A stretch of DNA of 64,000 nucleotides from Escherichia phage phiP4. Location: the sequence record PP993145.1, one strand, 5' to 3'. The notes beneath the pieces were generated by a model. The model did no database searches and was not told where the DNA came from. It was given only the letters and a program-made list of their open reading frames with translations. The first letter of the stretch is position 1. Every line of letters starts with the position of its first letter. Below, in pieces: positions 28,891 to 59,945 of the stretch. Both the position numbers and the translations under genes were made by a program.

Positions 28891-29298
28891 TTATTCACCT
28901 GCGGCCTGTTTTACTTCATCGGCAACGCCTAACAACTGCGCCACGGCGTCCAGCGTTTCCAGCTTCGCGCTTTCAAGGCTTGCCAGATCATCGGCGTCCT
29001 TGATAATGCCGGAATCAATAGCGTGTTTTGCAATCACTCGCACGTAATGAGCTTTGCGGATTGAACTACCGCCGCCAACTTTGCGCGGCTTATCGCTTTT
29101 TTGATATGCTTTCGCGCTGGTCAATTTTGAGCGAACTGACACGGGAGAAGCCGCGCCAACTGCTTTCGCAATCTCTTTCAGGCCGTCGCTATTTGCGAAA
29201 TCTAAACCGTTTTCATTGATTAACTGCTGATACATGGTAACAGCTTTTTGGGTGTTTTCTTCGTTCCAAGAAAATTTTGCGGTTTTTGCGTTAGTCAT
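28891..29298 (-). CDS. A2: A2-like pre-early DNA-binding protein, 135 aa
   Basis: Size and position upstream of A1 as in T5; basic C-terminal region. Confidence 0.45.
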   Translation of the reverse strand: MTNAKTAKFSWNEENTQKAVTMYQQLINENGLDFANSDGLKEIAKAVGAASPVSVRSKLTSAKAYQKSDKPRKVGGGSSIRKAHYVRVIAKHAIDSGIIKDADDLASLESAKLETLDAVAQLLGVADEVKQAAGE

Positions 29299-29398
29299 GG
29301 TAAAAACTCCAATTAATTTAATTTAAGGGATTAAATGATTAACTAATGTTAATCGTTATATGCCCCGAACTACTGGGGCATATAAAGTTAACACTATA

Positions 29399-29650
29399 TT
29401 ATAAAACGGCTTCCCATTTTTCGTTACGTTGAACAACCTTTACAACGTCGCCGGATTTAACGCGAACGCTAAAAACGGTTTTTCCGTTGTTACTGCGCTC
29501 ATTTTCAGCGTATACCGCGTCGATTGTATCAAACGGCATAAGCGCCGCGCCTTTAATACGTTCGGCTTTTCCGGTTAATTCATCCGTTTTAGTAACGAAA
29601 GGAATAAAAACAGATTGACCAATTTTCGGCGCGGTAATAACGTTTTGCAT
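29399..29650 (-). CDS. hypothetical protein, 83 aa
   Basis: ORF with upstream RBS. Confidence 0.4.
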   Translation of the reverse strand: MQNVITAPKIGQSVFIPFVTKTDELTGKAERIKGAALMPFDTIDAVYAENERSNNGKTVFSVRVKSGDVVKVVQRNEKWEAVL

Positions 29651-29883
29651 AATATAAACTCCAGTTTATTTGATGGATTGTTCCGCATTATCTGCTAGAA
29701 AATACTAGCAGATAATAAGAAGAAATCCGCTCGCCATTATAAAATCAATTTAAGGAACTCCACGCGGGCCGCTATATCCCAGTTAGGGGGCGGGATGCAT
29801 TATGGTAAGCACCGACCGTCAAATTGTATCAAGTTATCGCTCTTATCGAACTGGGTACATCTTAAAGCCTATCGGCTAGGTTG

Positions 29884-30087
29884 TCAAACTATTTTTTGCA
29901 GTTTTTTATGATTTTCCTTCAGGTCGATCATAATATTTCGCCAGATCATTTCTAGTCCTTGCTGGCGGCCTTTCTTGTACTGCTCAAATCGATATTTTAC
30001 CGATCTTTGCGCTACTGTCAATAAATTTTTTGTTTTGCTATCCAGTGCCTTGCTAGGTTTACCAGTGATCAATAAAGTTTGTTTCAT
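29884..30087 (-). CDS. hypothetical basic protein, 67 aa, bracketed by 17-bp inverted repeats
   Basis: ORF flanked by tcttaaagcctatcggc (29855-29871) and its reverse complement (30118-30134). Confidence 0.3.
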   Translation of the reverse strand: MKQTLLITGKPSKALDSKTKNLLTVAQRSVKYRFEQYKKGRQQGLEMIWRNIMIDLKENHKKLQKIV

Positions 30088-30780
30088 ATCGTCGATTCCT
30101 TATAATGAATAAGTTTACCGCCGATAGGCTTTAAGATATACCCAATTTTTAAAGAGCGCGGCGGTAAACTCCCCGCCGTGTAGTTCGTCATTGCCGCCCT
30201 ACGAGATAAATAATAACAAACAACGAAAAAGGCGCAACCTTATATTTGTAAAGAAATGTAAAGACAAACGCCACCGGACACCGTGCGGCGACCTGGGCGC
30301 GGCGCATTAAAATTAAAAGAAACGGGCGCGCGAATACCACAAAACACAGCAGATAGGCAAGTAATTTTTTCATTTATATTTGCTTTGCCCTACTTGACAA
30401 AATCTAAAAAGCTCGTGGCAGCGATAAACGGCTTATCCCCTTATGATGGGATGGCTAAAAACTTTATTGCGTTCTGGGGCGTTTTAGGCCGCCTATTTTC
30501 GACTTAACAAATCATTAACAAACGCAAAATTGAAAAATAGTTGGAAAAGGTCTTGACTTTTAAAAATCAAGATCAAATGACTTATTTTATAAAATAAATT
30601 AATTGACTTTTATTTGTTAGTATGCATCGGAAAGATAGCAGACTATTAATCACTAGAAGGATGATCATGCTGGTGGATTGTAACGGCCTGAATTATTAGC
30701 AGACTATTAATCACGGAAAAACTCATTAGCCAACTAACTATTTCATGATATATAATATACTTATAAATTAATGAGAAATA

Positions 30781-30863
30781 ATAACTATAAGAAATCATCA
30801 CCATTATAATAATAACTATAAGAAATCATCACCATTATAATAATAACTATAAGAAACTATCGG
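30781..30863. repeat. 31-bp tandem direct repeat, about 2.7 copies
   Basis: ataactataagaaatcatcaccattataata repeated head-to-tail. Confidence 0.8.
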
Positions 30864-30890
30864 CATAAGTGAGAACCACTATCATTTAAG

Positions 30891-30998
30891 TTATCCACAA
30901 TGTTATCCACAGCACAAAATAATTTGACACGATAGGCGGCGATATAAGGGCTTATCCACAGACTTATCCACAGGTTATCCTACTGTATAAATATACAG
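30891..30998. promoter_or_regulatory. DnaA-box cluster (4-5 TTATCCACA-like boxes) including left 40-bp inverted repeat arm (30959-30998)
   Basis: ttatccaca, gttatccacag, cttatccacag x2, ggttatcct read directly. Confidence 0.7.
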
Positions 30999-31263
30999 GG
31001 TAAAAAGGCAGTGTTAACGACTGCAATCAATTTTAAGCGGCCTAAAACGCTTTCTAACGAGCTAAACGCTGTGGGGTAATATTAAAGTAAAGACCCAACG
31101 CGGTGCCCTGGTGGCTTCGCCGTGTTTTGCTCTTTACCGTACCGCTGCGCGGTTATCATAAAAATAGGCGTTAGGCAAGGAAAATAAAAAAGTAAAATAA
31201 TCTTTGCCTATGCTAGAAAATTACCCTTATCATTTACTCACCGATTAACGAGAGGGCCAACAA

Positions 31264-32256
31264 ATGAGGCTATATAAACCAGATAACGCAACCGTCTTAA
31301 AAGGTGCGCTGCGTAACCTGCTGGATGGTAGCAGAACAACCAGCATCCGGCATTTTGTTTTCAATATTGAAACTATTCATCAAAACTTTTTTGATGAATA
31401 TGACGCTTATAATATGAATAGTTTTCTACCGTTATATAAACAAGGGGCAACGCTTGTTTTGTATAATCAGGATTATCAATTGCTCACTAGTCGGGGGCCG
31501 GATACTGATTTCATAATCGTAAAAGGCAACACAGTAAAAGCCTATGATACTGGGGCGGGCTTAGAAGTTTTTTCAATAGAAAACTATGAGGCTAATGATA
31601 ATGATCTTTATGACGTAGAAAATTTTCTTGATTCATTTTGGCGTTATTTATCAGTTGGCTGGAATCGGTCGGATTCTGATGGGTATCGTTTTGCGGCTAT
31701 AATGGCCTTCGATGATAACGGTAATTTTTTGCTACCGTCGGAACTATGCCCGTATGTTTATAATGATCTGATACAGGAGGCCGGTTTTACTTTCTGGAAA
31801 GATGAGGATCAGATTATTAACAGTATAGAAAAACATGCTGTAAATTCTAACACTCAAAGCGTTATCACTCAAACTACTGAAAATAAAGGAAAAAACACTA
31901 TGACCAAGATCGCTAACATCGTTGCCGCCAATAAGTCTGCCGTTGTAAACGCTGCAAAACTGGAAGCGGGTAAAATTGCACTAACTCAAATCACGAAAGT
32001 AGCGGCTAAAAAAGCACCGTTCATGATCAAAGGTTATATCGATACGCCGATTGGTCGCGTAGTAATCGCTAACCTGCTGAGTGTAGCGGTTGACCAGTAC
32101 GCCCCGAGTAACCAGAAAGCGAAAGCGGTAGCGGGGGCGGCTATGGAAGCGGCAATGTTGGAAATGGTGCAAAGTTTTAACATCGCTGAGATGATCGATG
32201 AAATGGTAAAAGGTATCGATATTTCTACTTTTACCAATAACACCGAAAACGAGTAA
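31264..32256 (+). CDS. hypothetical protein, 330 aa
   Basis: First gene of plus-strand cassette between the inverted repeats; no recognisable motif. Confidence 0.45.
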   Translation: MRLYKPDNATVLKGALRNLLDGSRTTSIRHFVFNIETIHQNFFDEYDAYNMNSFLPLYKQGATLVLYNQDYQLLTSRGPDTDFIIVKGNTVKAYDTGAGLEVFSIENYEANDNDLYDVENFLDSFWRYLSVGWNRSDSDGYRFAAIMAFDDNGNFLLPSELCPYVYNDLIQEAGFTFWKDEDQIINSIEKHAVNSNTQSVITQTTENKGKNTMTKIANIVAANKSAVVNAAKLEAGKIALTQITKVAAKKAPFMIKGYIDTPIGRVVIANLLSVAVDQYAPSNQKAKAVAGAAMEAAMLEMVQSFNIAEMIDEMVKGIDISTFTNNTENE

Positions 32257-32377
32257 TAACTAGCCCATTGTAAAGTTTTGTAAAGGCCGCCTTTTATGGT
32301 GGCCTTTTTTGTTATAATGCCTTTACACCGTTTGAGGACGGTTGAAAATTTTCCCAAAAAATTTTGGAGGCTTAAAA

Positions 32378-32607
32378 TGGTTGCTTTTTCTTCTTCTGAC
32401 GCTCTTTTCACTGGAAAAGGCTGGGTATCAAATCGCTGGATTATTCAGGAAATGGTGCAAGAGTACGGCATTGCTAAAACTTATACTACCATTCAGGCGC
32501 TTTATGATAATGATCAAATCGATCAGCAAACGGCGGGCTTTTTACTGGATACCCTGAAGGCGGAACACTGTACCAAAAAACAAGCCGCTAAAATTGTTTT
32601 AATGTAA
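32378..32607 (+). CDS. hypothetical protein, 76 aa
   Basis: Start set at Met preceded by GGAGG RBS (ORF-track start 32296). Confidence 0.4.
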
Positions 32608-32656
32608 TTAATAACGGGGCGAAAGTATCGCCCCACTAACTAGGGGAGTATCACAA

Positions 32657-32839
32657 ATGATTATTTTTCGAGCTTTTTTAGCGGGTATCTTGGGAGCTAT
32701 TTTGACCCTTTTCGCCACCGCTTACGGTATTCAGGATTCCTATTGCGGTTTGGTAAACACAAAACCTATGGTTACTATAGGCGCTGGTATCGCTGTATTT
32801 TCTTATCTGCTGGGCTGCATGAATAGTAAAGGAGAATAA
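32657..32839 (+). CDS. small membrane protein, 60 aa
   Basis: Two hydrophobic segments, RBS present. Confidence 0.4.
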   Translation: MIIFRAFLAGILGAILTLFATAYGIQDSYCGLVNTKPMVTIGAGIAVFSYLLGCMNSKGE

Positions 32840-32841
32840 AA

Positions 32842-33054
32842 ATGATCCGCAACGTTTCTCTTGCACGTTCGAAAGGTTTTAAGCTGGTGGACGCTAACAC
32901 GTTCGAGCGTCCAGATTGCAAGATCGAATATGTAGCACGTAATAAAAATGCCTTTCGTGTTACCGAGAAAAAATTTGATAAGCGCGGCAACGTGATCCTT
33001 GAAACGGTTAGGCACTTTGCCACCTTTTACGCTGCATTTCGTGGGGTACTATGA
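32842..33054 (+). CDS. hypothetical protein, 70 aa
   Basis: RBS AAGGAG upstream. Confidence 0.4.
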   Translation: MIRNVSLARSKGFKLVDANTFERPDCKIEYVARNKNAFRVTEKKFDKRGNVILETVRHFATFYAAFRGVL

Positions 33055-33290
33055 AAAGCGTTATTGTTGTTATCCTTGCAATGGCTGGCGGTTTTATCGC
33101 CACCTTATTTAAGAATGATCCCACTTCGTTGGGTATCTTTATGCTTTTATCGGGCTATCTGATCGGGAGGTTGTCAAATGATAGCGCAAATTAAAACGGC
33201 TTTTCGTTTTTGGGGCGTCCTGCCTTCAATTGGTTTTATTCTGATAATCATTAGTCAGCTAATGATTATCGTTGGCGTTATCTGGGAGCT

Positions 33291-33641
33291 ATGCAAATGA
33301 TCATTTACGAGGGCAATCGCTTTGTTGCTAATTGCCGCCCGGCATTGTTAGCAAACTATTTAAACCAGCTTTCACCAGCTTATAAGGGCGTTATTAATAT
33401 TTACGAGGGCAAGGCGCATTATAAAATCAATGCGGTCGTTGCCCGTGAACTAGCGTTTCAATTTTTAACCTTTGCATCTTGCGACGTTCAGGTTATGGGT
33501 GAGGCGTTAATTGCAGAAAATGAAGACGATTTTATTAATATTTTCCGTAAGGTATGCACCGAGCGCCTGATAATCAAAGGCGCATATATTCAATCCACGG
33601 CTGATAGTATTGAAACAGCGTTTCGAAAGGTGGCGCAATGA
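33291..33641 (+). CDS. hypothetical protein, 116 aa
   Basis: ORF; last sizeable gene of plus-strand cassette. Confidence 0.4.
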   Translation: MQMIIYEGNRFVANCRPALLANYLNQLSPAYKGVINIYEGKAHYKINAVVARELAFQFLTFASCDVQVMGEALIAENEDDFINIFRKVCTERLIIKGAYIQSTADSIETAFRKVAQ

Positions 33642-33793
33642 AACGATGGTTTAATCACTGGTACAAGCGGTTTTTAGTACGCCGTCGCAAGTCTAGGCAT
33701 CAAGATGAGTGGCGGGAGTGGGCAAAGCGTAACGGTTGCCCACTAATATAATAATCACGGGGCGCAACTATCAGGGAGTGCCCCCAATTTTCA

Positions 33794-34370
33794 AATGATA
33801 ATCATTCTCATTTGACCGCGCCCGCGATGGTTAGCCTGCTAATGGTTCGGGTGTTACGTGTCGCCTTGTGTGATCGTTAGCTCGCTAACTAATTTTCAAG
33901 CCTCCTCCAATTTTGCCCTTGTTTTAGTATCCCCACCAAAATTAAACGCGTTAGAATGCGTTTGAGAGCGTTTTAACGCTATATTAGAATTATTCGCTGC
34001 GTAGGAATACTGTATATTTATCCAGTAGGATAAGCTGTGGATAAGTCTGTTAATAACGCCTCAAAATGGCTAGGGTTTTGTCAAGTCAAATCGTGCTGTT
34101 AATAAGTCTGTGGATAACTTAAATAACAGTGTTTCTCACTTCCGTTCTTAAATGAGAATCATTATCATTTGTATTTCACTATCTAACTAATAATCATTCC
34201 ACTATCTAACTAATAATCATTCCACTTTCTAAATGAGAATCATTCCGCTTTTTAAATGAGAATCATTTCACTTTTTAAATGAGATTGATTCTCATTTCAC
34301 TTTCTAAATGCGAATTATTATCATTCTCATTCCGCTTTTTAAATGAGAATGATTCTTATTATCATTCGTA
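33794..34370. promoter_or_regulatory. array of at least 7 Fur-box-like AT-rich palindromes (AAATGAGAATCATT family)
   Basis: 33794-33814 aaatgataatcattctcattt matches 16/19 of GATAATGATAATCATTATC; 34148-34166 matches 15/19; further copies 34231-34366. Confidence 0.45.
34010..34049. repeat. right 40-bp inverted repeat arm with DnaA boxes (partner of 30959-30998)
   Basis: Reverse complement equals left arm with 3 mismatches; extra tgtggataac box at 34103-34112. Confidence 0.75.
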
Positions 34371-34374
34371 TTTA

Positions 34375-34396
34375 GCGCAGAGCAATTGCTCTGCGC
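34375..34396. repeat. perfect 22-bp palindrome gcgcagagcaattgctctgcgc
   Basis: Read directly. Confidence 0.85.
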
Positions 34397-34400
34397 TTTT

Positions 34401-35000
34401 GTGCAAATCCGACATTGCTCCACGGGTGTTACGTGCGGGCGTGTATGTGCGAATCCGACAATTTTTGGTAGTGTGCAAATCCGACCCGAAAAATTTTTAT
34501 AGTGTGCAAATCCGACAATGAATTTTCCTAAAAACTCCAGCAATCCGATGCTGCGCATCAATCCTGTGGAATTAGCTAGAGTATGTGCAAATCCGACATG
34601 GGTTTATTTGTGCGAATCCGACAAGATTTTTGTGACTTCGATTGGAGGGTGTGTGATTGTGTGGGTTTGGGGAGAAGTTGAGAGAGCGAGAGAAAATAAG
34701 AGGAGAAGCTAGAGGGGCAGCAGTGGTGGCGTGCAACGCCTGATTTGCTGCGTTTTTGGGGAGAGTTGAAAAGATTTGGGTTAATTTGAGATTAGTGGAG
34801 ATAAAGTAAAATTTTATTAGCAAAATGGGGCAAAATAGCTTGACAAGTGAAAATTTCTGTGGCTCTAAAAACTCAGGCAATCACGGGCCTTCGGCCCGAA
34901 ATAATGCTGCCATTTTCAGGAGATTATATGTTCCTAAAAACTTAGGCAATTGTGCAAATCCGACCATAAATTTCTAGAAACACAATGTGCAAATCCGACA
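34401..35000. repeat. eight dispersed copies of GTGC(A/G)AATCCGAC(A/C) motif plus AACCGCC and ttcctaaaaac repeats; injection-stop-signal-like noncoding region
   Basis: Copies at 34401, 34447, 34473, 34503, 34585, 34610, 34953, 34987. Confidence 0.75.
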
Positions 35001-35473
35001 GTAATTTCTGGAAATGTGTTTTCAAAAAATGTCTCCTAGAAATAACCGCCCTCCCCATAACCGCCCTGTATTAAACCGCCTAGTATATGTTCCTAGAAAC
35101 TTGGGAGAACCGCCCACTAGAAGCGTGAGATCTCGTGAGTATTTCGTGAGAACTCTGGAGTTTCTAGGAAAGTGTTGTGCCATCCTAGCAGATGAGCGGC
35201 AACCGGTGTATCATCTTGAATGTAAATTATGTGGTCAAAAGTTTTACCTTTAATTTAAGTATAAGATCCCCCAAGATTGGAAGAGATGCTCCACCCCTGG
35301 GATACGAATTGCGTGAGATGGTACAAAACTTCTTAAGATTTCCCTAGTCCTTCGACAAGCTACGGGGGAAATAGAAGTTTCCCATCCACCATCCGTATCC
35401 GGGTGGATCTCTTTATTCTATGTTATTTCATAGAGTTATTATAACATGCAGAAATCATAACGTCAAGTAGAGT

Positions 35474-36364
35474 TTATTCATCGAACATGAGATTTCCTTT
35501 CATCCCCATCTCCGCATACTCCATGAGTTCTTTGATGGATCTCACGGGGTAATCTACTTTACTAAAGTTATCATAGATCTTACATGAACTCTCATACAAC
35601 TCGTTAGGTATCTGCAATTTGTTATCTGTTAGCTTCTCATAACGTGCAGAAGAATTTGTACCGTCAAACAGAACTGCGATAACTGCGGCGATTTGTTTAG
35701 TAAGATCATCTGCTCCTAGAATTATTCTATTAATAGCAATCGTTACTTCATGCTTAGGTTTAGCAGGTGGAAGGATAGGTTTGAGATCCTTAGGTAAAGG
35801 TTCTGTTCCTAGGAATCCTTCTTTTGTGCGGAACCAATAATTATCTAGATCAGATATCGTCTTAGACTTATTCCAAATAGTGAAGCAGGGTTTATTTCCT
35901 TCACGATCTCTGTATTCACGAATTGGAAGGTAATGATCAGGGAATGAATTGAGTGCATCATGCATCGGTGAGCCTGTCTTTTTGAATGACAAACCATACA
36001 ACTCATTATAATTCATAACTTCATCTTCGTAAACATGGAAATCTTTATATGCTGGAAGATTAAACCATTCCTGAAGTGAATGAACTGCAAAACGTTGTGC
36101 CCAAGCATGCATCACTAGAACTCTGTATTCTTTTACTTCATCTTTTGGAGAAGTACCTTTAGCTGTTCTAGCTGAACGAATACAGAACATCTCAACAACA
36201 CGTTTCTCATTTAAAGAGAGTTCAGAATAACAACGTTCATGGCAACCTTCTAGCATTTCTAGAAGTTCACGTAGTTTCTCTACATCGACCGGTGGAAAAG
36301 GTCTTTCTTCAACTGCGAATTTACCAGTTACACCTTTTGGTTTTCTATTACTATAAAATCCCAT
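35474..36364 (-). CDS. hypothetical early protein, 296 aa
   Basis: First ORF after repeat block. Confidence 0.5.
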   Translation of the reverse strand: MGFYSNRKPKGVTGKFAVEERPFPPVDVEKLRELLEMLEGCHERCYSELSLNEKRVVEMFCIRSARTAKGTSPKDEVKEYRVLVMHAWAQRFAVHSLQEWFNLPAYKDFHVYEDEVMNYNELYGLSFKKTGSPMHDALNSFPDHYLPIREYRDREGNKPCFTIWNKSKTISDLDNYWFRTKEGFLGTEPLPKDLKPILPPAKPKHEVTIAINRIILGADDLTKQIAAVIAVLFDGTNSSARYEKLTDNKLQIPNELYESSCKIYDNFSKVDYPVRSIKELMEYAEMGMKGNLMFDE

Positions 36365-36966
36365 TAATTACCTCTCTTATCTTCATTAATAGCAGCTCCC
36401 AACGCTTCAAGGATAGCATCACTCATACTCCCAGGCTTAAGATTATTAAAGTGAGTAACATAAATGGGACTTCTAAAACCCTTAGCATCCGCAGGTGCTA
36501 CGCTTCGCATATCAGATTCAAAAGCTTCTTGAGTGTGTTTCAACTGTACAGAAGGGCCGTAATCTTCCCCAAACTTATATGACTGCGTACTACTTACCAC
36601 ACTCCCACAAGGAACATTGTGCAAATCCGGTGATTTATTTAGCATTGAGATTGTCCCTGACTGCCACGGATCTCTAATAGTCACTGGAGTACTAGGGCGG
36701 TTCACCTCAGTCTTCACAAGTTTATATCCTGCATCGATTAATACGTTAATTAGATTATCAGCTGGGATGCGAGCCTTACCAAAAATCTTACGAGCATCTT
36801 CGAGCTTATCCTCAAGATCTTTACACGCTCTAAGGTCAGTGTGTGCAAATGTTAGCTTCATGGATTTGAATTGTACAGTAGCAGTTAGATCTTTAAAGCT
36901 ATAATCCCATGTGTTCAGTTCATGGTCTGGTACTACTTGAATAGATTGTTGTACATTAAAAGTCAT
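36364..36966 (-). CDS. hypothetical early protein, 200 aa
   Basis: ORF, start overlaps previous stop. Confidence 0.5.
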   Translation of the reverse strand: MTFNVQQSIQVVPDHELNTWDYSFKDLTATVQFKSMKLTFAHTDLRACKDLEDKLEDARKIFGKARIPADNLINVLIDAGYKLVKTEVNRPSTPVTIRDPWQSGTISMLNKSPDLHNVPCGSVVSSTQSYKFGEDYGPSVQLKHTQEAFESDMRSVAPADAKGFRSPIYVTHFNNLKPGSMSDAILEALGAAINEDKRGN

Positions 36967-37151
36967 TATTTATTCTCCAGTTTGTCTAATAGCTTATGAG
37001 CTGCTAGATTATATTGTTTGAGTTCACGATTAAGGATTTGATTCTCACACTTTAGCTCTAGATTCTTATTATTAAGAATATTGCAGATTAGTAGAAGTGC
37101 TAATATTAGTAACAGAGAACCTACGAGCATTAAAAGAAAAAGAGTTTCCAT
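36966..37151 (-). CDS. small membrane protein, 61 aa
   Basis: Hydrophobic N-terminal helix. Confidence 0.35.
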   Translation of the reverse strand: METLFLLMLVGSLLLILALLLICNILNNKNLELKCENQILNRELKQYNLAAHKLLDKLENK

Positions 37152-37693
37152 TATTTTATCTCCATTCTTAACTTTGAAAACTTATTATACCAAACTATAT
37201 GATTATCGTCAATTACAAATTTATGATAACATGCTGGTACGGTATAAGTTCCATAATCTGTGACACGCTGCACAACCTTGTGTGCACACAGTCGACAACC
37301 ATGCCCTTCTAAATGAGATCTAGCAGTTTGCCAGTAATAACCATCATGATCTGGACAATAGATCTCGACTTGCTGTTGCATTGTTTTGTAATTTACACGC
37401 TCATATCCAAAGAAAGCTCCATGAACTGCAACAGCTTTCTTGATAAATATAAGGTTTAGTGCTTCTTGTTGAAAGTCGGGATGTAGCTGCTTAATCTTAG
37501 TTCTATTAATAGATCCATCCGATTTGATGAACCTATTTATTGGAAAGTTGTTAGCTTCCTCGATTAGTAATTCATTTACTTTTTCTCTCATATTATATAC
37601 TCTCACAGCTAAGGTAAAAACATTCGTAAGCATCACCAGTAAACTCTTTATCTTGTAGTATACATTTAGCCTGGTCTTCTGGTACTCCGGCAT
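37151..37693 (-). CDS. hypothetical protein with Cys/His cluster, 180 aa
   Basis: HLEGHGCRLCAH motif. Confidence 0.4.
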   Translation of the reverse strand: MPEYQKTRLNVYYKIKSLLVMLTNVFTLAVRVYNMREKVNELLIEEANNFPINRFIKSDGSINRTKIKQLHPDFQQEALNLIFIKKAVAVHGAFFGYERVNYKTMQQQVEIYCPDHDGYYWQTARSHLEGHGCRLCAHKVVQRVTDYGTYTVPACYHKFVIDDNHIVWYNKFSKLRMEIK

Positions 37694-37850
37694 CTAATAA
37701 TTGTTGTTTACTTGGCTTTTCAGCGAATACTTTTACAAAATATTCACCATCCTGATTATACTCATTTATATCTCTAGTAAGGACATATAATTGCATCTGA
37801 AGTTCCTTGAAACACAAAAGGCCAGAACAATTAAGTCCTGGCCTCTAGAA

Positions 37851-38222
37851 TTAATGAAGTTGTTTACCACTTCTTAAAATAGTGGCCGTTTCCATAAGAT
37901 TTAACGTTGTATCACGCTTTTTGATTTGTTTGTCGAGTTCATCGGTACGTTTGCCAATGTAAGCGTTAATAGCCATATTCATAGCGGAGGCGAGATCTTC
38001 TTTGGTTATCTCTTCGTCATCTAAGGCTAATTTAGCCAAAGAATCGAAAGTACTAGAAAGTCCTATAAGATCAGAAGCTTCCCCAGCCAAAATAGGGTTA
38101 ACATTATCTATTGTTACTTCTAGCATAGAGTTAACAATATCTTCTCCGTCTACTAGACCAGATTCAATATTACTCTCCCATTCCTTCATCTGCTCCAGCA
38201 ATGGATTTTTCTTTTCTGTCAT
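37851..38222 (-). CDS. hypothetical protein, 123 aa
   Basis: ORF. Confidence 0.4.
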   Translation of the reverse strand: MTEKKNPLLEQMKEWESNIESGLVDGEDIVNSMLEVTIDNVNPILAGEASDLIGLSSTFDSLAKLALDDEEITKEDLASAMNMAINAYIGKRTDELDKQIKKRDTTLNLMETATILRSGKQLH

Positions 38223-38631
38223 GGTAGAGGTTTCCTGTGTCAGTTGGTAAGAAGGACGATTGAGCTTTAGGCGGATGTTGTTTAGTAATCCAGTTAAGAA
38301 TCAGTACACGACTAGGAACAATATCAGTGTTGCACCAAAAATCATGAACCCATTGACGAGCATCCTCAAACTTACCAAATTTATATGCTTTCTTAAATAA
38401 TTCAAACCCAAAACAATCTGGTGTAAAGTCTACTTCACGATATTGAATTACTTTAGAACCAGTTAGGTCTTGGATCGCTGCATTAATTTCTGTATGCGAG
38501 AATTTTGTTTCGTGAAACTTATTAAAGAATCGGTAGTTGAAGCGTCCGTTCGTTTCGACAAACAACTGGATGAAGAGATCGTTAAATTGGTTATCAAACC
38601 AGTAATTCTGTAGTTGTTGTAGTGCTGTCAT
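38170..38631 (-). CDS. hypothetical protein, 153 aa
   Basis: ORF. Confidence 0.4.
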   Translation of the reverse strand: MTALQQLQNYWFDNQFNDLFIQLFVETNGRFNYRFFNKFHETKFSHTEINAAIQDLTGSKVIQYREVDFTPDCFGFELFKKAYKFGKFEDARQWVHDFWCNTDIVPSRVLILNWITKQHPPKAQSSFLPTDTGNLYHDRKEKSIAGADEGMGE

Positions 38632-54380: not shown

Positions 54381-54470
54381 TGGCAGAAGATAATGGAGTC
54401 GAACCATCACCGTATCGCTACAGCGGGCTGGTTTTCAAGACCAGTTACGTACCACTACGTCCTATCTTCT
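54381..54470 (-). tRNA. tRNA-Ser (anticodon TGA), class II
   Basis: 90 nt, stem CTGGT/ACCAG loop CTTGAAA, long variable arm. Confidence 0.7.
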
Positions 54471-55135: not shown

Positions 55136-55214
55136 TGGTGGAGAATAACGGAATCGAACCGTTCTGATGTCCTCGGTGCAAGCGAGGTGTCCACTCCATG
55201 CAGACCCATTCCCC
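55136..55214 (-). tRNA. tRNA-Ala (anticodon TGC) with G3:U70
   Basis: Stem CCTCG/CGAGG loop CTTGCAC; G3-U70 wobble in acceptor. Confidence 0.75.
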
Positions 55215-55229
55215 AAATTCTTTAGTTTA

Positions 55230-55411
55230 CTAAGGCTATTAGCTCGGCGTAACTACAGCACCTTCGCTTCGAGCGGAAGGAACTGCGTCATCTCGCAAAC
55301 CCAATACACTATTCAGTTGCCGCTGAATCTAGTGGACCAATCTAGAACTTCTCCCGAATCAGGGGGATCGTGCTTTTTGGCAGCCAGTCCTAGGTCGAGC
55401 TAATACCTTAG
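55230..55411 (-). ncRNA. candidate structured small RNA closed by a 16-bp terminal helix
   Basis: 55230-55246 pairs with 55396-55411 (one bulge); internal hairpins; promoter at 55453-55481 on same strand; no credible ORF. Confidence 0.4.
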
Positions 55412-55452
55412 TGAACTATGATGAGGATTTCTCCTCATCAATTTATATAAAT

Positions 55453-55481
55453 ATTATAACAAGAAATTAAGCATCAAGCAA
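55453..55481 (-). promoter_or_regulatory. sigma70 early promoter (TTGCTT-17-TATAAT) upstream of ncRNA candidate
   Basis: Hexamers read on minus strand. Confidence 0.55.
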
Positions 55482-55500
55482 CTGCGTTTTTTCTTGAAAT

Positions 55501-55852: not shown

Positions 55853-55928
55853 TGGTCAGTGCGGCAGGACTCGAACCTGCGACCCGAAGCATCCAAGGCT
55901 CCCACGCTACCAACTGCGCTACGCACTG
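55853..55928 (-). tRNA. tRNA-Pro (anticodon TGG)
   Basis: 76 nt, loop CTTGGAT, acceptor CAGTGCG/CGCACTG. Confidence 0.7.
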
Positions 55929-55988: not shown

Positions 55989-56380
55989 ATGAATTTTTAA
56001 TAAATTTACTTATTGTGTAGGCCACCTAGAGGCTATGAACCCCACGGCTGACAAAGAAGTTTGCGAGACTTCTCTTAAATGCCAGAATAGACCCGCCGAT
56101 CTATCGGAACCTACATAATAAGTAAACTTTATAGTGTCATTCTAGACAGGACTCGAACCTGTTATCACTTGTGCGGACTTACGAGAACCATTCTTTCACT
56201 CGAATCGAACGAGCTTCTGCCCTCGCCAAGCTGGTTTCCCCATCAACCACGCTAGAATGTTTGATTGTTTTCAGTGCAAGAGTCCGAGTCTTGGACACGA
56301 CCGCTTCGCAAGTACATAGGCAGCTTATCATGAGTCAGCACTTCCGAATTGCTAGCTCCGTGTTCTGCACTGAAATTTTA

Positions 56381-56728
56381 TTAGTTTAACCGTAAAGTAT
56401 TATCTACTTCACCATTAATTGTTCGGCATTCTTCTGGGATTGCCGGGGTAGCCTTATATTCCCACCACTCAGCACCATCATATTCCCCACGTTCTAACCA
56501 AGTTCCATCGGCAAACCATACATTACCATAAAGTAATTGTCCACCGTATCCAGAATCATATTCAAAGTCTAGGTTATTAAGAAAATCCTCAATATCTTCT
56601 TCTGTATAACCTAAAGGTAATACCCAAACTTTTTTATCCCCATAATACCCGAATTCTATTTTAATACACTTAACTTCAGAATTAGTATTTTTTAAGGCAA
56701 GTAACAACTCTTCTTTAGCATTACGCAT
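56381..56728 (-). CDS. hypothetical protein, 115 aa
   Basis: ORF. Confidence 0.4.
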   Translation of the reverse strand: MRNAKEELLLALKNTNSEVKCIKIEFGYYGDKKVWVLPLGYTEEDIEDFLNNLDFEYDSGYGGQLLYGNVWFADGTWLERGEYDGAEWWEYKATPAIPEECRTINGEVDNTLRLN

Positions 56729-56753: not shown

Positions 56754-56830
56754 TGGCGCGACCGATGGGATTCGAACCCACATTCTCTCCCGTGACAGGG
56801 GAGTACCATTACCAAGCCAGCCCCGGTCGC
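56754..56830 (-). tRNA. tRNA-Asp (anticodon GTC)
   Basis: Stem CTCCC/GGGAG loop CTGTCAC, acceptor GCGACCG/CGGTCGC. Confidence 0.75.
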
Positions 56831-56839
56831 ATGATCTGT

Positions 56840-57025
56840 TTATTCAGCTTTGAGTTTTTCAATAGCTGCATTAAGTTCTTTAAGAAACTCTTTTCGTACA
56901 TTAAGACGATTGAGACTTACTAGTATATCATGTTTAAGTTCTTCGATGTATTTCTTCTCAACTTCAATATTGTTGATAGTGCTATCACGATGAACTTCTA
57001 ACTGTGCAATTACATTCTTGGACAT
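56840..57025 (-). CDS. hypothetical coiled-coil protein, 61 aa
   Basis: ORF. Confidence 0.3.
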   Translation of the reverse strand: MSKNVIAQLEVHRDSTINNIEVEKKYIEELKHDILVSLNRLNVRKEFLKELNAAIEKLKAE

Positions 57026-57126
57026 GCTTATTTCCTCAGTTATTAATGAAAATGGTATCTGTGGCTGAATTCGATGTCAGCAATGATAGCTGGTTGGCTA
57101 CCGGTTTACTTAACTCTACACAGAAT

Positions 57127-59867: not shown

Positions 59868-59945
59868 TGGTGGCTCCCCGAGGATTCGAACCTACGTACC
59901 TTCCGGTTATGAGCCGGGTGCTCATACCATATGAGCTTGAGAACC
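59868..59945 (-). tRNA. tRNA-Met (anticodon CAT), initiator-like anticodon arm
   Basis: CCCGG-CTCATAA-CCGGAAGG resembles E. coli tRNA-fMet. Confidence 0.6.

What the first reader, a model, noticed from the sequence alone, without database searches (positions are those of the whole stretch)
56119..56237. 119-nt tRNA-like element with two T-arm-like hairpins
ATTCTAG at one end pairs with CTAGAAT at the other as an acceptor stem, and a canonical T-arm (ACAGG-TTCGAGT-CCTGT) is present. The body is about 40 nt too long and holds a second T-loop-like hairpin (CTCG-TTCGATT-CGAG). No CCA is encoded. It could be a rearranged tRNA pseudogene, an intron-bearing tRNA or a tRNA-like regulatory RNA.
Basis: seen in the sequence. 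Interest (0 to 1): 0.5.

Follow-up and report, generated by a model that had tools for sequence, protein, structure and literature searches.

The report
T5 RNA2: tRNA-shaped stable phage RNA
This is the already-annotated but functionally unexplained 'RNA2' of T5-like phages: a tRNA-shaped RNA in the phage tRNA gene cluster whose anticodon loop is replaced by a conserved extra module carrying a second T-arm, so it cannot read codons.

Summary
The described features are real, but lie on the minus strand at 56139-56258, about 20 nt from the stated coordinates. The window is a T5-like phage. The element is the ortholog (97.5% identical) of T5 gene rna2 (T5s06), annotated in the reference genome as 'tRNA-like stable RNA with unknown functions'.

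It sits in a 22-tRNA minus-strand array, between a small ORF and the rnaIV homolog. ARAGORN and Rfam call nothing there.

I collected relatives from T5-like phages of six host genera, from T4-like Acinetobacter phages and from uncultivated viral and metagenomic contigs. None was found in E. coli chromosomes, in plasmids or among the 120 bacterial-genome pattern matches.

Covariation supports a cloverleaf body (acceptor, D-arm, anticodon stem, T-arm). In place of the anticodon loop is a roughly 48-54-nt conserved insert made of two short helices, a second canonical T-arm, and invariant AAUGG and UAA strands.

It is not a pseudogene, an intron-bearing tRNA, a tmRNA or a relative of T4 rnaC/rnaD. 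The best reading is a natural tRNA scaffold, matured by tRNA-processing enzymes, that displays a second 'elbow' module as the functional part. Its target is unknown. The feature is already known; the family-level structure appears undescribed.

The parts
56135..56259 (-). Whole element as annotated for its T5 ortholog (rna2/T5s06, 125 nt). The covariance-model match is 56138-56258. The likely mature 5' end is A at 56258, and the discriminator G is at 56138.
   Evidence: 97.5% identity to T5 over 201 nt; T5 annotation mapped to the window; R1 hit at 56138-56258, 147.9 bits.
56252..56258 (-). Acceptor stem, 5' strand: AUUCUAG.
   Evidence: Pairs with 56139-56145. All 7 pairs covary across lineages, for example GGGUACU/GGUAUCC, UACGGGG/UCCCGUA and GACUUUG/CAAAGUC.
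56232..56249 (-). D-arm: UGGU-UGAUGGGGAA-ACCA, with GG in the loop.
   Evidence: All 4 pairs covary, and 94-96% of cells are paired.
56227..56230 (-). P2 (the anticodon-stem equivalent), 5' strand: CUUG. It pairs with 56168-56171 (CAAG).
   Evidence: All 4 pairs covary, with 99-100% of cells paired. RNAalifold recovers this helix independently.
56223..56226 (-). 5' side of the internal loop (GCGA). Together with 56172-56174 (GCA) it makes a 7-nt, anticodon-loop-sized loop into which the insert is set. The C at 56225 and the A at 56172 are invariant in the 14-sequence alignment A1.
   Evidence: invariant columns; loop composition across 15 lineages.
56175..56222 (-). Conserved 48-nt insert that replaces the middle of the anticodon loop. 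It comprises P3 (GGGC 56219-56222 with GUCC 56175-56178), P4 (AGAA 56215-56218 with UUCU 56184-56187), the inner T-arm, the AAUGG strand and the CGUAA bulge.
   Evidence: The last P3 pair switches between C:G and U:A. P4 covaries at all 4 pairs. P2+P3+P4 give a covariation score of 0.379 against 0.155 for shuffles (0 of 500 reach it).
56198..56214 (-). Inner (second) T-arm: GCUCG-UUCGAUU-CGAGU. It has a 5-bp stem, a canonical 7-nt T-loop and a G53-C61-type closing pair.
   Evidence: 4 of 5 pairs covary, with 98-99% of cells paired.
56188..56197 (-). Single strand GAAAGAAUGG. The AAUGG at 56188-56192 is invariant and is the inferred D-loop-like GG donor for the inner T-loop.
   Evidence: Invariant columns and the alignment. 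The tertiary role is inference.
56179..56183 (-). Bulge CGUAA, in which UAA is invariant.
56163..56167 (-). Variable loop: UGAUA, 5 nt, of class I tRNA type.
56146..56162 (-). Outer T-arm: ACAGG-UUCGAGU-CCUGU.
   Evidence: 4 of 5 pairs covary, with 97-99% of cells paired.
56139..56145 (-). Acceptor stem, 3' strand: CUAGAAU. It is followed by the discriminator G (56138) and ACA, so no CCA is encoded here.
   Evidence: Other lineages do encode CCA: K7rec10, KpGranit, UTK0010, KKP_3711 and L024.

Best explanation
The element is the ortholog of bacteriophage T5 gene rna2. It is a stable, non-decoding RNA that is transcribed as part of the phage tRNA operon and has the body of a tRNA: acceptor stem, D-arm, anticodon stem, 5-nt variable loop and T-arm. 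In place of the central anticodon-loop nucleotides it carries a conserved 48-54-nt module. That module has two short helices (P3 and P4), a second canonical T-arm, an invariant AAUGG strand and an invariant UAA bulge.

Proposed mechanism:
(1) Inferred from the architecture and from known tRNA biology: the tRNA body works as a natural 'tRNA scaffold'. RNase P cuts at the 5' end of the acceptor stem, the 3' end is trimmed, and CCA is added or, in some lineages, encoded. TrmA and TruB probably modify both T-loops. The result is a discrete, nuclease-resistant RNA of about 120 nt.
(2) Shown by sequence: with no anticodon loop, it cannot decode.
(3) Inferred: the AAUGG strand caps the inner T-loop the way the D-loop GG caps a normal T-loop. 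This gives a second tRNA-like 'elbow' at the end of a long coaxial arm. The conserved double-elbow core is the effector, most plausibly binding or titrating a host or phage factor that recognises tRNA elbows or T-arms. That factor could be a tRNA-targeting defence nuclease or a tRNA-processing or modification enzyme, which would find no cleavable anticodon loop in this RNA.

My probabilities: identity and architecture about 0.95; scaffold-type maturation about 0.8; effector acting as a tRNA-mimic decoy or binder about 0.3.
For: Identity: the window is 96-97% identical to T5-like phages. The element is 97.5% identical to T5, where the same place is annotated rna2/T5s06, 'tRNA-like stable RNA with unknown functions'. 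It is flanked by rnaIV and promoter P13a exactly as in the window.

Family: model R1 separates 44 members (50-149 bits) from ordinary tRNAs (35 bits or less). Members occur in Tequintavirus, in Epseptimavirus (including a Yersinia phage), in Klebsiella, Serratia and Enterobacter Demerecviridae, in Acinetobacter Straboviridae (133, Acj9, ZZ1, AB1I1M-1), and in viral and metagenomic contigs of 34-56% GC. Nearly all lie next to or between tRNA genes on the same strand.

Structure: 91.8-93.7% of cells are paired, against 65-72% in shuffles. The covariation score is 0.59-0.71, against 0.18-0.19 for shuffles and 0.14 or less for slid controls. 28 of 33 pairs show double changes. RNAalifold independently recovers the acceptor, D, P2 and both T-arms.

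Scaffold idea: the tRNA body changes freely. Acceptor stems are completely different between lineages, two lineages have a tRNA-Ala-type G3:U70/A73 acceptor, and several encode CCA. The insert, by contrast, carries nearly all the invariant positions. In Acinetobacter phage 133 the core lies exactly between two tRNAs and has no acceptor stem of its own. That points to the double-elbow core, not aminoacylation, as the conserved functional part.
Against: No expression, end-mapping or binding data could be obtained here. 'Stable RNA' rests on the GenBank annotation alone, because the primary papers are not held.

The locus is dispensable in the laboratory. T5Mos (deletion 30661-38625) lacks it and is viable (PMC11464382). 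T5 strain 123 retains rna2 yet is still PARIS-sensitive, so RNA2 does not counter PARIS.

A simple block of the anticodon loop would not require such a conserved insert, so a more specific and still unknown interaction is likely.

P3 rests on one covarying pair plus conserved G:C pairs. RNAalifold offers a different 3-bp pairing of invariant bases. P4 shifts register between subgroups. The alignments used for the counts were fitted to the model, and many sequences are close relatives.

No protein gene consistently accompanies the RNA.
Confidence: 0.55

Rival explanations
1. Pure processing or punctuation element. On this view the tRNA shape exists only to recruit RNase P and 3' processing enzymes. 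They would cut the polycistronic transcript, defining the 3' end of the upstream mRNA and the 5' end of RNAIV or of downstream genes, and the released RNA would have no function of its own.
For: The element lies between an ORF and another stable RNA at the end of a transcription unit. tRNA-like punctuation is well known in organelles and in MALAT1/mascRNA (own knowledge). The region is non-essential.
Against: Processing needs only the acceptor/T minihelix, yet the most conserved part is the insert: AAUGG, UAA and the inner T-arm. The downstream neighbour differs between phages (RNAIV, a tRNA or an ORF) while the element is kept. The Acinetobacter members lack an acceptor stem.
Confidence: 0.12
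2. Aminoacylated tRNA mimic with a non-decoding role, either tmRNA-like ribosome rescue or amino-acid donation to a transferase.
For: The acceptor and T arms are intact. CCA is encoded in five lineages. Kamaji and L235 carry the alanine identity set G1-C72, G2-C71, G3:U70 and A73, as in tmRNA. In phage ZZ1 an RF-1-domain protein gene lies immediately downstream.
Against: The window and T5 acceptor (A1-U72, U2-A71, U3-A70, G73) has no G3:U70, and acceptor identity is not conserved across lineages. Acinetobacter members lack an acceptor stem altogether. ARAGORN finds no tmRNA. No reading frame is conserved in the insert, because indels are not multiples of three. The RF-1 neighbour is seen only in ZZ1-type phages, and its GGQ motif is degenerate.
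Confidence: 0.08
3. A functional tRNA (Leu-like) interrupted by a small intron that is spliced out.
For: The insert sits inside a loop whose remaining 4+3 nucleotides equal an anticodon loop in size. The residual 'anticodon' reads GAG, UAG or UAA (all Leu) in most lineages.
Against: The residual loop has C33 in 14 of 15 lineages and a pyrimidine at 37 in all, by direct reading of the sequences, both against universal tRNA rules. The variable loop is 5 nt, whereas bacterial tRNA-Leu is class II. The discriminator is G, not A. An insert of 48-54 nt is far below group I intron size and gives no Rfam intron hit. No splicing machinery for such an insert is known in these hosts (own knowledge). T5 annotates the full-length 125-nt form as the stable RNA. 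ARAGORN accepts only 6 of 15 excised constructs.
Confidence: 0.04
4. Decayed or rearranged tRNA pseudogene, or a protein-coding ORF. Some records annotate a 'hypothetical protein' over this place.
For: Standard tRNA finders reject the element. A 50-aa ORF on the minus strand and a 72-aa ORF on the plus strand overlap it, and several GenBank records place a CDS here.
Against: The element is conserved across phage families, with compensatory base-pair changes in all helices. Its boundaries coincide with the acceptor stem ends. Length changes of 1, 2 and 5 nt break any reading frame.
Confidence: 0.02

Closest known systems
Bacteriophage T5 rna2 (locus T5s06, NC_005859 32959-33083), 'tRNA-like stable RNA with unknown functions'
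   Same: It is the ortholog: 97.5% identical over a 201-nt query that spans the element and about 40 nt of flank on each side, on the same strand, with the same neighbours (T5.067 homolog upstream; rnaIV and promoter P13a downstream).
   Different: Only a few point differences. For example the window has CUAGAAU where T5 has CUAGGAU in the acceptor 3' strand, and A instead of G at the start of the outer T-stem.
Bacteriophage T4 rnaC and rnaD (species 1 and 2 RNAs)
   Same: They are small stable RNAs of 139 and 119 nt, encoded inside a phage tRNA cluster, still without a known function. rnaC also ends in a T-arm-like hairpin.
   Different: No homology is detectable. Neither model R1 nor R2 hits them, while both hit the T4 tRNAs next to them. 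Their sequences lack the AAUGG and UAANNCC boxes.
Engineered 'tRNA scaffold' for recombinant RNA expression (Ponchon and Dardel; own knowledge)
   Same: The design principle is the same. A structured RNA replaces the anticodon stem-loop of a tRNA, so that the cell's tRNA machinery processes and stabilises it.
   Different: This one is natural, it is conserved in phages, and its cargo is itself a T-arm-containing module.
tmRNA tRNA-like domain
   Same: It has an acceptor stem and a T-arm with the anticodon arm replaced by another domain. Two lineages of this family (Kamaji, L235) even have G3:U70/A73.
   Different: There is no tag reading frame, no pseudoknot ring, and no G3:U70 in the window copy. 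ARAGORN finds no tmRNA. The element is about 120 nt, against about 360 nt for tmRNA.
YrlA, the bacterial Y-RNA-like tRNA mimic (own knowledge)
   Same: It is a non-coding RNA that mimics the tRNA D/T elbow and is modified like a tRNA.
   Different: In YrlA the RNA termini form the Ro-binding stem at the position of the anticodon stem, a permuted topology. Here the termini form the acceptor stem. No Rfam match was found at E up to 10.
Canonical tRNA (Rfam RF00005)
   Same: The acceptor, D and T arms, the 5-nt variable loop and a 4-5-bp anticodon stem are all present and covary.
   Different: There is no anticodon loop. The score is 18 bits against a 29-bit threshold, and ARAGORN does not call it.

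Membership tests
T5 rna2 (T5s06) stable tRNA-like RNA | Full-length sequence orthology to the annotated T5 rna2 | tested here: met
   97.5% identity over a 201-nt query covering the element and its flanks. The annotation maps to window 56135-56259, minus strand.
T5 rna2 (T5s06) stable tRNA-like RNA | Conserved position: downstream of tRNA-Asp and the T5.067 ORF, upstream of rnaIV, promoter P13a and tRNA-Pro | tested here: met
   tRNA-Asp lies at 56754-56830 and tRNA-Pro at 55853-55928. The T5.067-like ORF is at 56381-56728. The P13a-like promoter is at 55988-55960.
T5 rna2 (T5s06) stable tRNA-like RNA | Accumulates as a discrete stable RNA in infected cells | not testable with these tools
   Only the GenBank note supports this. 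The primary papers are not held.
Canonical tRNA (RF00005) | Cloverleaf arms (acceptor, D, T) supported by pairing | tested here: met
   acceptor 7 of 7, D 4 of 4 and T 4 of 5 pairs covary.
Canonical tRNA (RF00005) | 7-nt anticodon loop with U33 and purine 37 | tested here: not met
   The loop position holds a 55-nt domain. Even after excising the insert, position 33 is C (in 14 of 15 lineages) and position 37 is a pyrimidine (in all).
Canonical tRNA (RF00005) | Score at or above the family threshold, or a call by tRNA finders | tested here: not met
   There is no ARAGORN call and no Rfam gathering hit. The best score is 18 bits against 29, for the 3' part only.
Intron-containing tRNA (group I or bulge-helix-bulge) | A recognisable intron core of adequate size | tested here: not met
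   The insert is 48 nt here and 46-54 nt across the family. No Rfam intron family matches at E up to 10.
Intron-containing tRNA (group I or bulge-helix-bulge) | Excision restores a valid tRNA of consistent identity | tested here: not met
   ARAGORN accepts 6 of 15 excised constructs, with identities Leu, Gln and Ala, and the loop has C33 and Y37.
tmRNA | tRNA-like domain plus tag reading frame, detectable by ARAGORN | tested here: not met
   No tmRNA was found in the window. No frame is conserved across the family alignment.
tmRNA | Alanine identity: G3:U70 with A73 | tested here: not met
   The window copy has U3-A70 and G73. The feature is present only in Kamaji and L235.
T4 rnaC / rnaD | Sequence and structure homology | tested here: not met
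   Models R1 and R2 hit the T4 tRNAs in L010 but not positions 1409-1672, which hold rnaC and rnaD.
YrlA / Y RNA-like | Match to the Rfam model, with a Ro-binding terminal stem | tested here: not met
   No Rfam hit at E up to 10. The termini form an acceptor stem instead.

The most novel reading that the evidence does not exclude
RNA2-type elements may form a previously undescribed, phage-wide family of natural 'tRNA-scaffold' RNAs. Their conserved second-elbow module would be a dedicated effector, for example an uncleavable tRNA mimic that traps a host tRNA-targeting immunity nuclease or some other factor that reads tRNA elbows. That would give the first function to the enigmatic stable RNAs of phage tRNA clusters.
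Probability: 0.25. Interest if true: 0.75.

Novelty: already known. Interest (0 to 1): 0.45.

Why it matters
Small stable RNAs embedded in phage tRNA clusters (T4 species 1 and 2; T5 RNA2, RNA3, RNAIV) have, to my knowledge, been catalogued for decades without any function. Phage tRNA clusters have recently been shown to be anti-defence arsenals: the T5 tRNA-Lys counters PARIS and the T5 tRNA-Tyr counters a retron (bioRxiv 10.1101/2023.03.15.532788, as listed).

This analysis shows that RNA2 is not a T5 oddity. It is a covarying family shared by unrelated phage groups, with a precisely defined invariant core: the inner T-arm, AAUGG and UAA. That turns 'unknown stable RNA' into a testable object with clear mutational targets. 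It also flags a family missing from Rfam that genome annotators currently miss, mis-call as tRNA-Arg, or cover with spurious ORFs.

Tried and rejected
1. ARAGORN and Rfam, at gathering threshold and at E up to 10, on 901-nt and 136-nt stretches: no family matches, only an 18-bit partial tRNA hit.

2. T4 rnaC and rnaD as homologs. A short shared string (GGUUGAGAUAYGG) looked suggestive, but two covariance models give no hit.

3. The single-sequence MFE pairing of the insert (CGAGGGC with GUUCUCG). It has no comparative support: covariation 0.110 against 0.108 for shuffles, with 181 of 500 shuffles reaching the observed score.

4. The intron hypothesis: in-silico excision gives an invalid anticodon loop. 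A bulge-helix-bulge reading was also considered and rejected, because the bulges are not arranged on opposite strands around the 4-bp P3 and the hosts are bacteria.

5. A tmRNA-like tag ORF: no frame is conserved.

6. A conserved protein partner: the neighbours differ in every lineage. The upstream T5.067-like ORF contains 'GYGGQ' but matches no Pfam family, only a PHROG of unknown function. The RF-1-domain neighbour is confined to ZZ1-type phages.

7. Cellular homologs. The 120 bacterial-genome pattern matches contain no member, so they are chance matches. Nothing was found in 5,426 E. coli genomes or 72,556 plasmids.

8. Literature. Five full-text searches returned results and two failed on a term-length error. 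Two direct look-ups also failed. Nothing on RNA2 was found beyond the GenBank annotation.

Full report
**Observation.** The coordinates, however, are off. On the plus strand ATTCTAG starts at 56139 and CTAGAAT ends at 56258, so the element spans 56139-56258 (120 nt), about 20 nt to the right of the stated 56119-56237. The T-loops as quoted (TTCGAGT, TTCGATT) are the minus-strand reading. The minus strand also carries all 22 tRNA genes that ARAGORN finds between 51.5 and 63.6 kb (Rfam finds 21). Neither tool calls anything at the element, even at E up to 10. The best result is an 18-bit partial tRNA match against a 29-bit threshold.

**What genome, and is it annotated?** The surrounding 2.5 kb is 96-97% identical to many T5-like phages (Demerecviridae, Tequintavirus). 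A 201-nt query around the element matches 479 phage records. In the T5 reference genome NC_005859 and in AY692264 the same place is annotated as misc_RNA rna2 (T5s06), 'tRNA-like stable RNA with unknown functions', 125 nt. Seventeen bases downstream lies rnaIV ('stable RNA with unknown functions'), followed by promoter P13a. Mapped to the window, rna2 corresponds to 56135-56259 (minus strand) and rnaIV to about 56014-56116. The P13a hexamers TTGCTA-17-TATAAT are found at 55988-55960. Most other deposited T5-like genomes leave the place blank or cover it with a 'hypothetical protein'. One record (KKP_3711) calls its first 70 nt 'tRNA-Arg(ccg)'. The feature is therefore already known, but nothing about its function is known. 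Full-text searches and direct look-ups of the primary T5 papers returned nothing further.

**A family, not a T5 oddity.**
- BLAST with the element and with divergent members, together with three motif scans of public collections, recovered relatives from several sources.
- Among T5-like phages these include Epseptimavirus (Yersinia phiR2-01, Salmonella UTK0010), Enterobacter KKP_3711, Klebsiella Sugarlandvirus (K7_rec10, KpGranit) and Serratia Kamaji.
- Four T4-like Acinetobacter phages of a different family, Straboviridae, also carry it: 133, Acj9, ZZ1 and AB1I1M-1.
- So do uncultivated viral and metagenomic contigs of 34-56% GC: L024, L189, L206/L218, L221, L235, L248 and L289.
- In many T5-like phages the BLAST match covers essentially only the element (query 36/42-165, where the element occupies 43-162) and the flanks do not align. 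The conserved unit therefore ends at the acceptor stem.
- Most members lie beside or between tRNA genes on the same strand.
- A covariance model built from eight T5-type sequences (R1) scores 44 members at 50-149 bits. Ordinary tRNAs score 35 bits or less.
- None of the 120 bacterial-genome pattern matches is a member. There is no BLAST match in 5,426 complete E. coli genomes or in 72,556 plasmids.
- One member (L235) lies on an 882-kb metagenomic contig of unknown nature. Its neighbouring ORF resembles a Chryseobacterium jumbo-phage protein.

**Structure.** Position 1 is the A at window 56258. The proposed elements are:
- acceptor stem, 1-7 with 114-120;
- D-arm, 10-13 with 24-27, with GG in the loop;
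- P2, the anticodon-stem equivalent, 29-32 with 88-91;
- an internal loop, 33-36 opposite 85-87;
- P3, 37-40 with 81-84 (GGGC/GUCC);
- P4, 41-44 with 72-75 (AGAA/UUCU);
- the inner T-arm, 45-49 with 57-61, with loop UUCGAUU;
- a single strand, 62-71, ending in the invariant AAUGG;
- a bulge, 76-80, with invariant UAA;
- a variable loop, 92-96;
- the outer T-arm, 97-101 with 109-113;
- the discriminator G at 121.

On a 28-sequence model-guided alignment, 93.7% of cells form standard pairs, against 71.6% in shuffles. 28 of 33 pairs show changes on both sides. The covariation score is 0.592, against 0.182 for shuffles and 0.125 or less when partners are slid. On a less redundant 24-sequence set with more lineages the figures are 91.8% against 65.0%, and 0.708 against 0.194.

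The acceptor stem is completely different between lineages yet always pairs: AUUCUAG/CUAGAAU, GGGUACU/GGUAUCC, UACGGGG/UCCCGUA, GACUUUG/CAAAGUC, GGGGCGG/UCGCUCC and UACUGAC/GUCAGUA. RNAalifold, which predicts its own structure, recovers the acceptor, D, P2 and both T-arms.

The inner helices tested alone (P2+P3+P4) give 0.379 against 0.155, with 0 of 500 shuffles reaching that value. The pairing preferred by single-sequence folding has no comparative support: 0.110 against 0.108.

There are caveats:
- P3 rests on one switching pair (C:G in three independent lineages, U:A or U-U elsewhere) plus conserved G:C pairs.
- P4 shifts register between subgroups.
- The alignments are fitted to the model.
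- Many rows are close relatives.

**What is conserved.** The invariant columns are concentrated in the insert: the GG of P3, the inner T-loop, AAUGG, UAA and the CC of P3. The tRNA body keeps only its shape. Two lineages (Kamaji, L235) have a tRNA-Ala-type acceptor with G1-C72, G2-C71, G3:U70 and A73. Five lineages encode CCA. The window copy and T5 do not, since GACA follows the stem. In Acinetobacter phage 133 the element fills exactly the gap between tRNA-Gly and tRNA-Cys and has no acceptor stem of its own. ZZ1 likewise lacks one, and in all four Acinetobacter phages the D-stem is reduced to a GGNGGAAG loop. The minimal conserved unit is therefore the outer T-arm and GG loop, P2, and the insert with its second T-arm, that is, a 'double-elbow' core.

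**What it is not.**
- *Pseudogene or ORF:* excluded by covariation across phage families and by indels of 1, 2 and 5 nt.
- *Intron-bearing tRNA:* the insert sits inside a 4+3-nt loop, and after excision the residual 'anticodon' is usually GAG, UAG or UAA. However, position 33 is C in 14 of 15 lineages and position 37 is a pyrimidine in all, by direct reading of the sequences. The body is class I with G73. The insert is far below group I size and gives no Rfam hit. ARAGORN accepts only 6 of 15 excised constructs. The loop may be a relic of an ancestral insertion into a tRNA anticodon loop, which is inference.
- *tmRNA:* ARAGORN finds none, no frame is conserved, and the window copy lacks G3:U70.
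- *T4 rnaC or rnaD:* they occupy an analogous genomic niche but are not detected by either model.

**How it most likely works.**
- *Shown here:* the RNA has a tRNA body without an anticodon loop, so it cannot decode. It is embedded in the tRNA operon. Its conserved, covarying insert carries a second canonical T-arm.
- *Taken from the annotation:* it accumulates as a stable RNA.
- *Inferred from established tRNA biology:* RNase P and the 3' trimming and CCA-adding enzymes recognise the acceptor/T minihelix and would excise and stabilise the molecule. TrmA and TruB act on isolated T-arms and would probably modify both loops. The arrangement is the natural counterpart of the engineered 'tRNA scaffold' used to express structured RNAs in E. 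coli (own knowledge).
- *Further inference:* the AAUGG strand caps the inner T-loop as the D-loop G18-G19 does in tRNA. This would make a second elbow at the end of a long coaxial arm formed by P2, P3, P4 and the inner T-stem.
- *Most speculative step:* this core binds or titrates a factor that recognises tRNA elbows or T-arms, while offering no cleavable anticodon loop. I put this at about 0.3.

Published genetics constrain the options. T5Mos (deletion 30661-38625) lacks rna2 and is viable. T5 strain 123 (deletion 29191-32442) retains rna2 yet is PARIS-sensitive and is rescued by tRNA-Lys. RNA2 is therefore non-essential and is not the anti-PARIS factor (PMC11464382). No protein gene travels with the RNA.

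**Verdict.** The finding is a real feature with slightly wrong coordinates. It is already annotated in T5 as rna2, and its function is unknown. The comparative structure, the invariant double-T-arm core and the spread into Acinetobacter T4-like and uncultivated phages do not appear in Rfam 15 or in the literature I could search. They make an old open question experimentally tractable. I rate the interest as moderate.

Noticed in passing
window 56014-56116 (minus strand): This is the homolog of T5 rnaIV, another 'stable RNA with unknown functions'. It folds into a long closing stem with three hairpins: MFE -38.2 kcal/mol, z = -3.24. Some T5-like phages lack it and have an ORF or a tRNA directly after RNA2.
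   Followed up: partly
window 56260-56382 (minus strand): The 120-nt spacer between the T5.067-like ORF and RNA2 is closed by a 10-12-bp stem (UUUCAGUGCA/UGCACUGAAA), with z = -1.8. It is unannotated in T5 and could be another structured RNA or a processing signal.
   Followed up: partly
window about 57053-57125 (minus strand): An identical copy of T5 rna3 ('putative tRNA-like RNA', 73 nt, ending in ACCA) lies next to tRNA-Asn. Neither ARAGORN nor Rfam calls it.
   Followed up: partly
window 59871-59945 (minus strand): Rfam calls a tRNA here (40.3 bits) that ARAGORN does not list. Conversely, ARAGORN lists tRNA-Ser at 54381-54470 and tRNA-Ala at 55136-55214, which are absent from the Rfam gathering list.
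   Followed up: no
window 55215-55500 (minus strand): T5 has tRNA-Val(UAC), promoter P13b and the stable RNA rna2H between tRNA-Lys and tRNA-Ala, a span of 373 nt. The window has only 286 nt there and no tRNA-Val call. The tRNA-Val may therefore be missing from this phage.
   Followed up: no
L184 428-658 (Acinetobacter phage ZZ1): A 76-aa RF-1-domain protein (Pfam PF00472, 40.5 bits) lies immediately downstream of the family member. Its GGQ motif is degenerate (GKHSNW). It was seen only in ZZ1-type phages.
   Followed up: partly
L005 about 307-426 (Serratia phage Kamaji) and L235 808-926: These two family members carry a tRNA-Ala/tmRNA-type acceptor: G1-C72, G2-C71, G3:U70 and discriminator A. 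They could therefore be chargeable with alanine, unlike the window copy.
   Followed up: partly
L183 268-337 (Enterobacter phage KKP_3711): The deposited record annotates the first 70 nt of the family member as 'tRNA-Arg(ccg)'. This is a mis-call caused by the tRNA-like 5' part together with the inner T-arm.
   Followed up: yes
L248 205-276: The low-GC metagenomic contig carrying a family member also encodes a tRNA with anticodon CTA (an amber suppressor, which ARAGORN labels tRNA-Pyl). This hints at a phage with a recoded stop codon.
   Followed up: no
L196 1050-1155; L216 947-1082; L189 8968-9094; L226 8461-8562: These are other tRNA-shaped RNAs of 100-136 nt, in viral and metagenomic contigs, with different large inserts in or near the anticodon-loop position. 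They suggest that tRNA bodies carrying foreign modules are a broader phenomenon.
   Followed up: partly
L193 7500-7611; L210 1987-2096; L190 2777-2882; L194 6999-7113: These are shorter RNAs with two T-loops plus AAUGG that lack the UAANNCC box. They may be reduced relatives of the family. They score only in the tRNA range (28-38 bits) and were fished with a pattern that requires these motifs, so they are not independent evidence.
   Followed up: partly
window 56381-56728 and 56840-57025 (minus strand): Small ORFs are interleaved with the tRNAs. The T5.067-like 115-aa protein contains 'GYGGQ' and matches only PHROG 3972 (unknown function), with no Pfam hit. A 61-aa protein matches DUF7337.
   Followed up: partly
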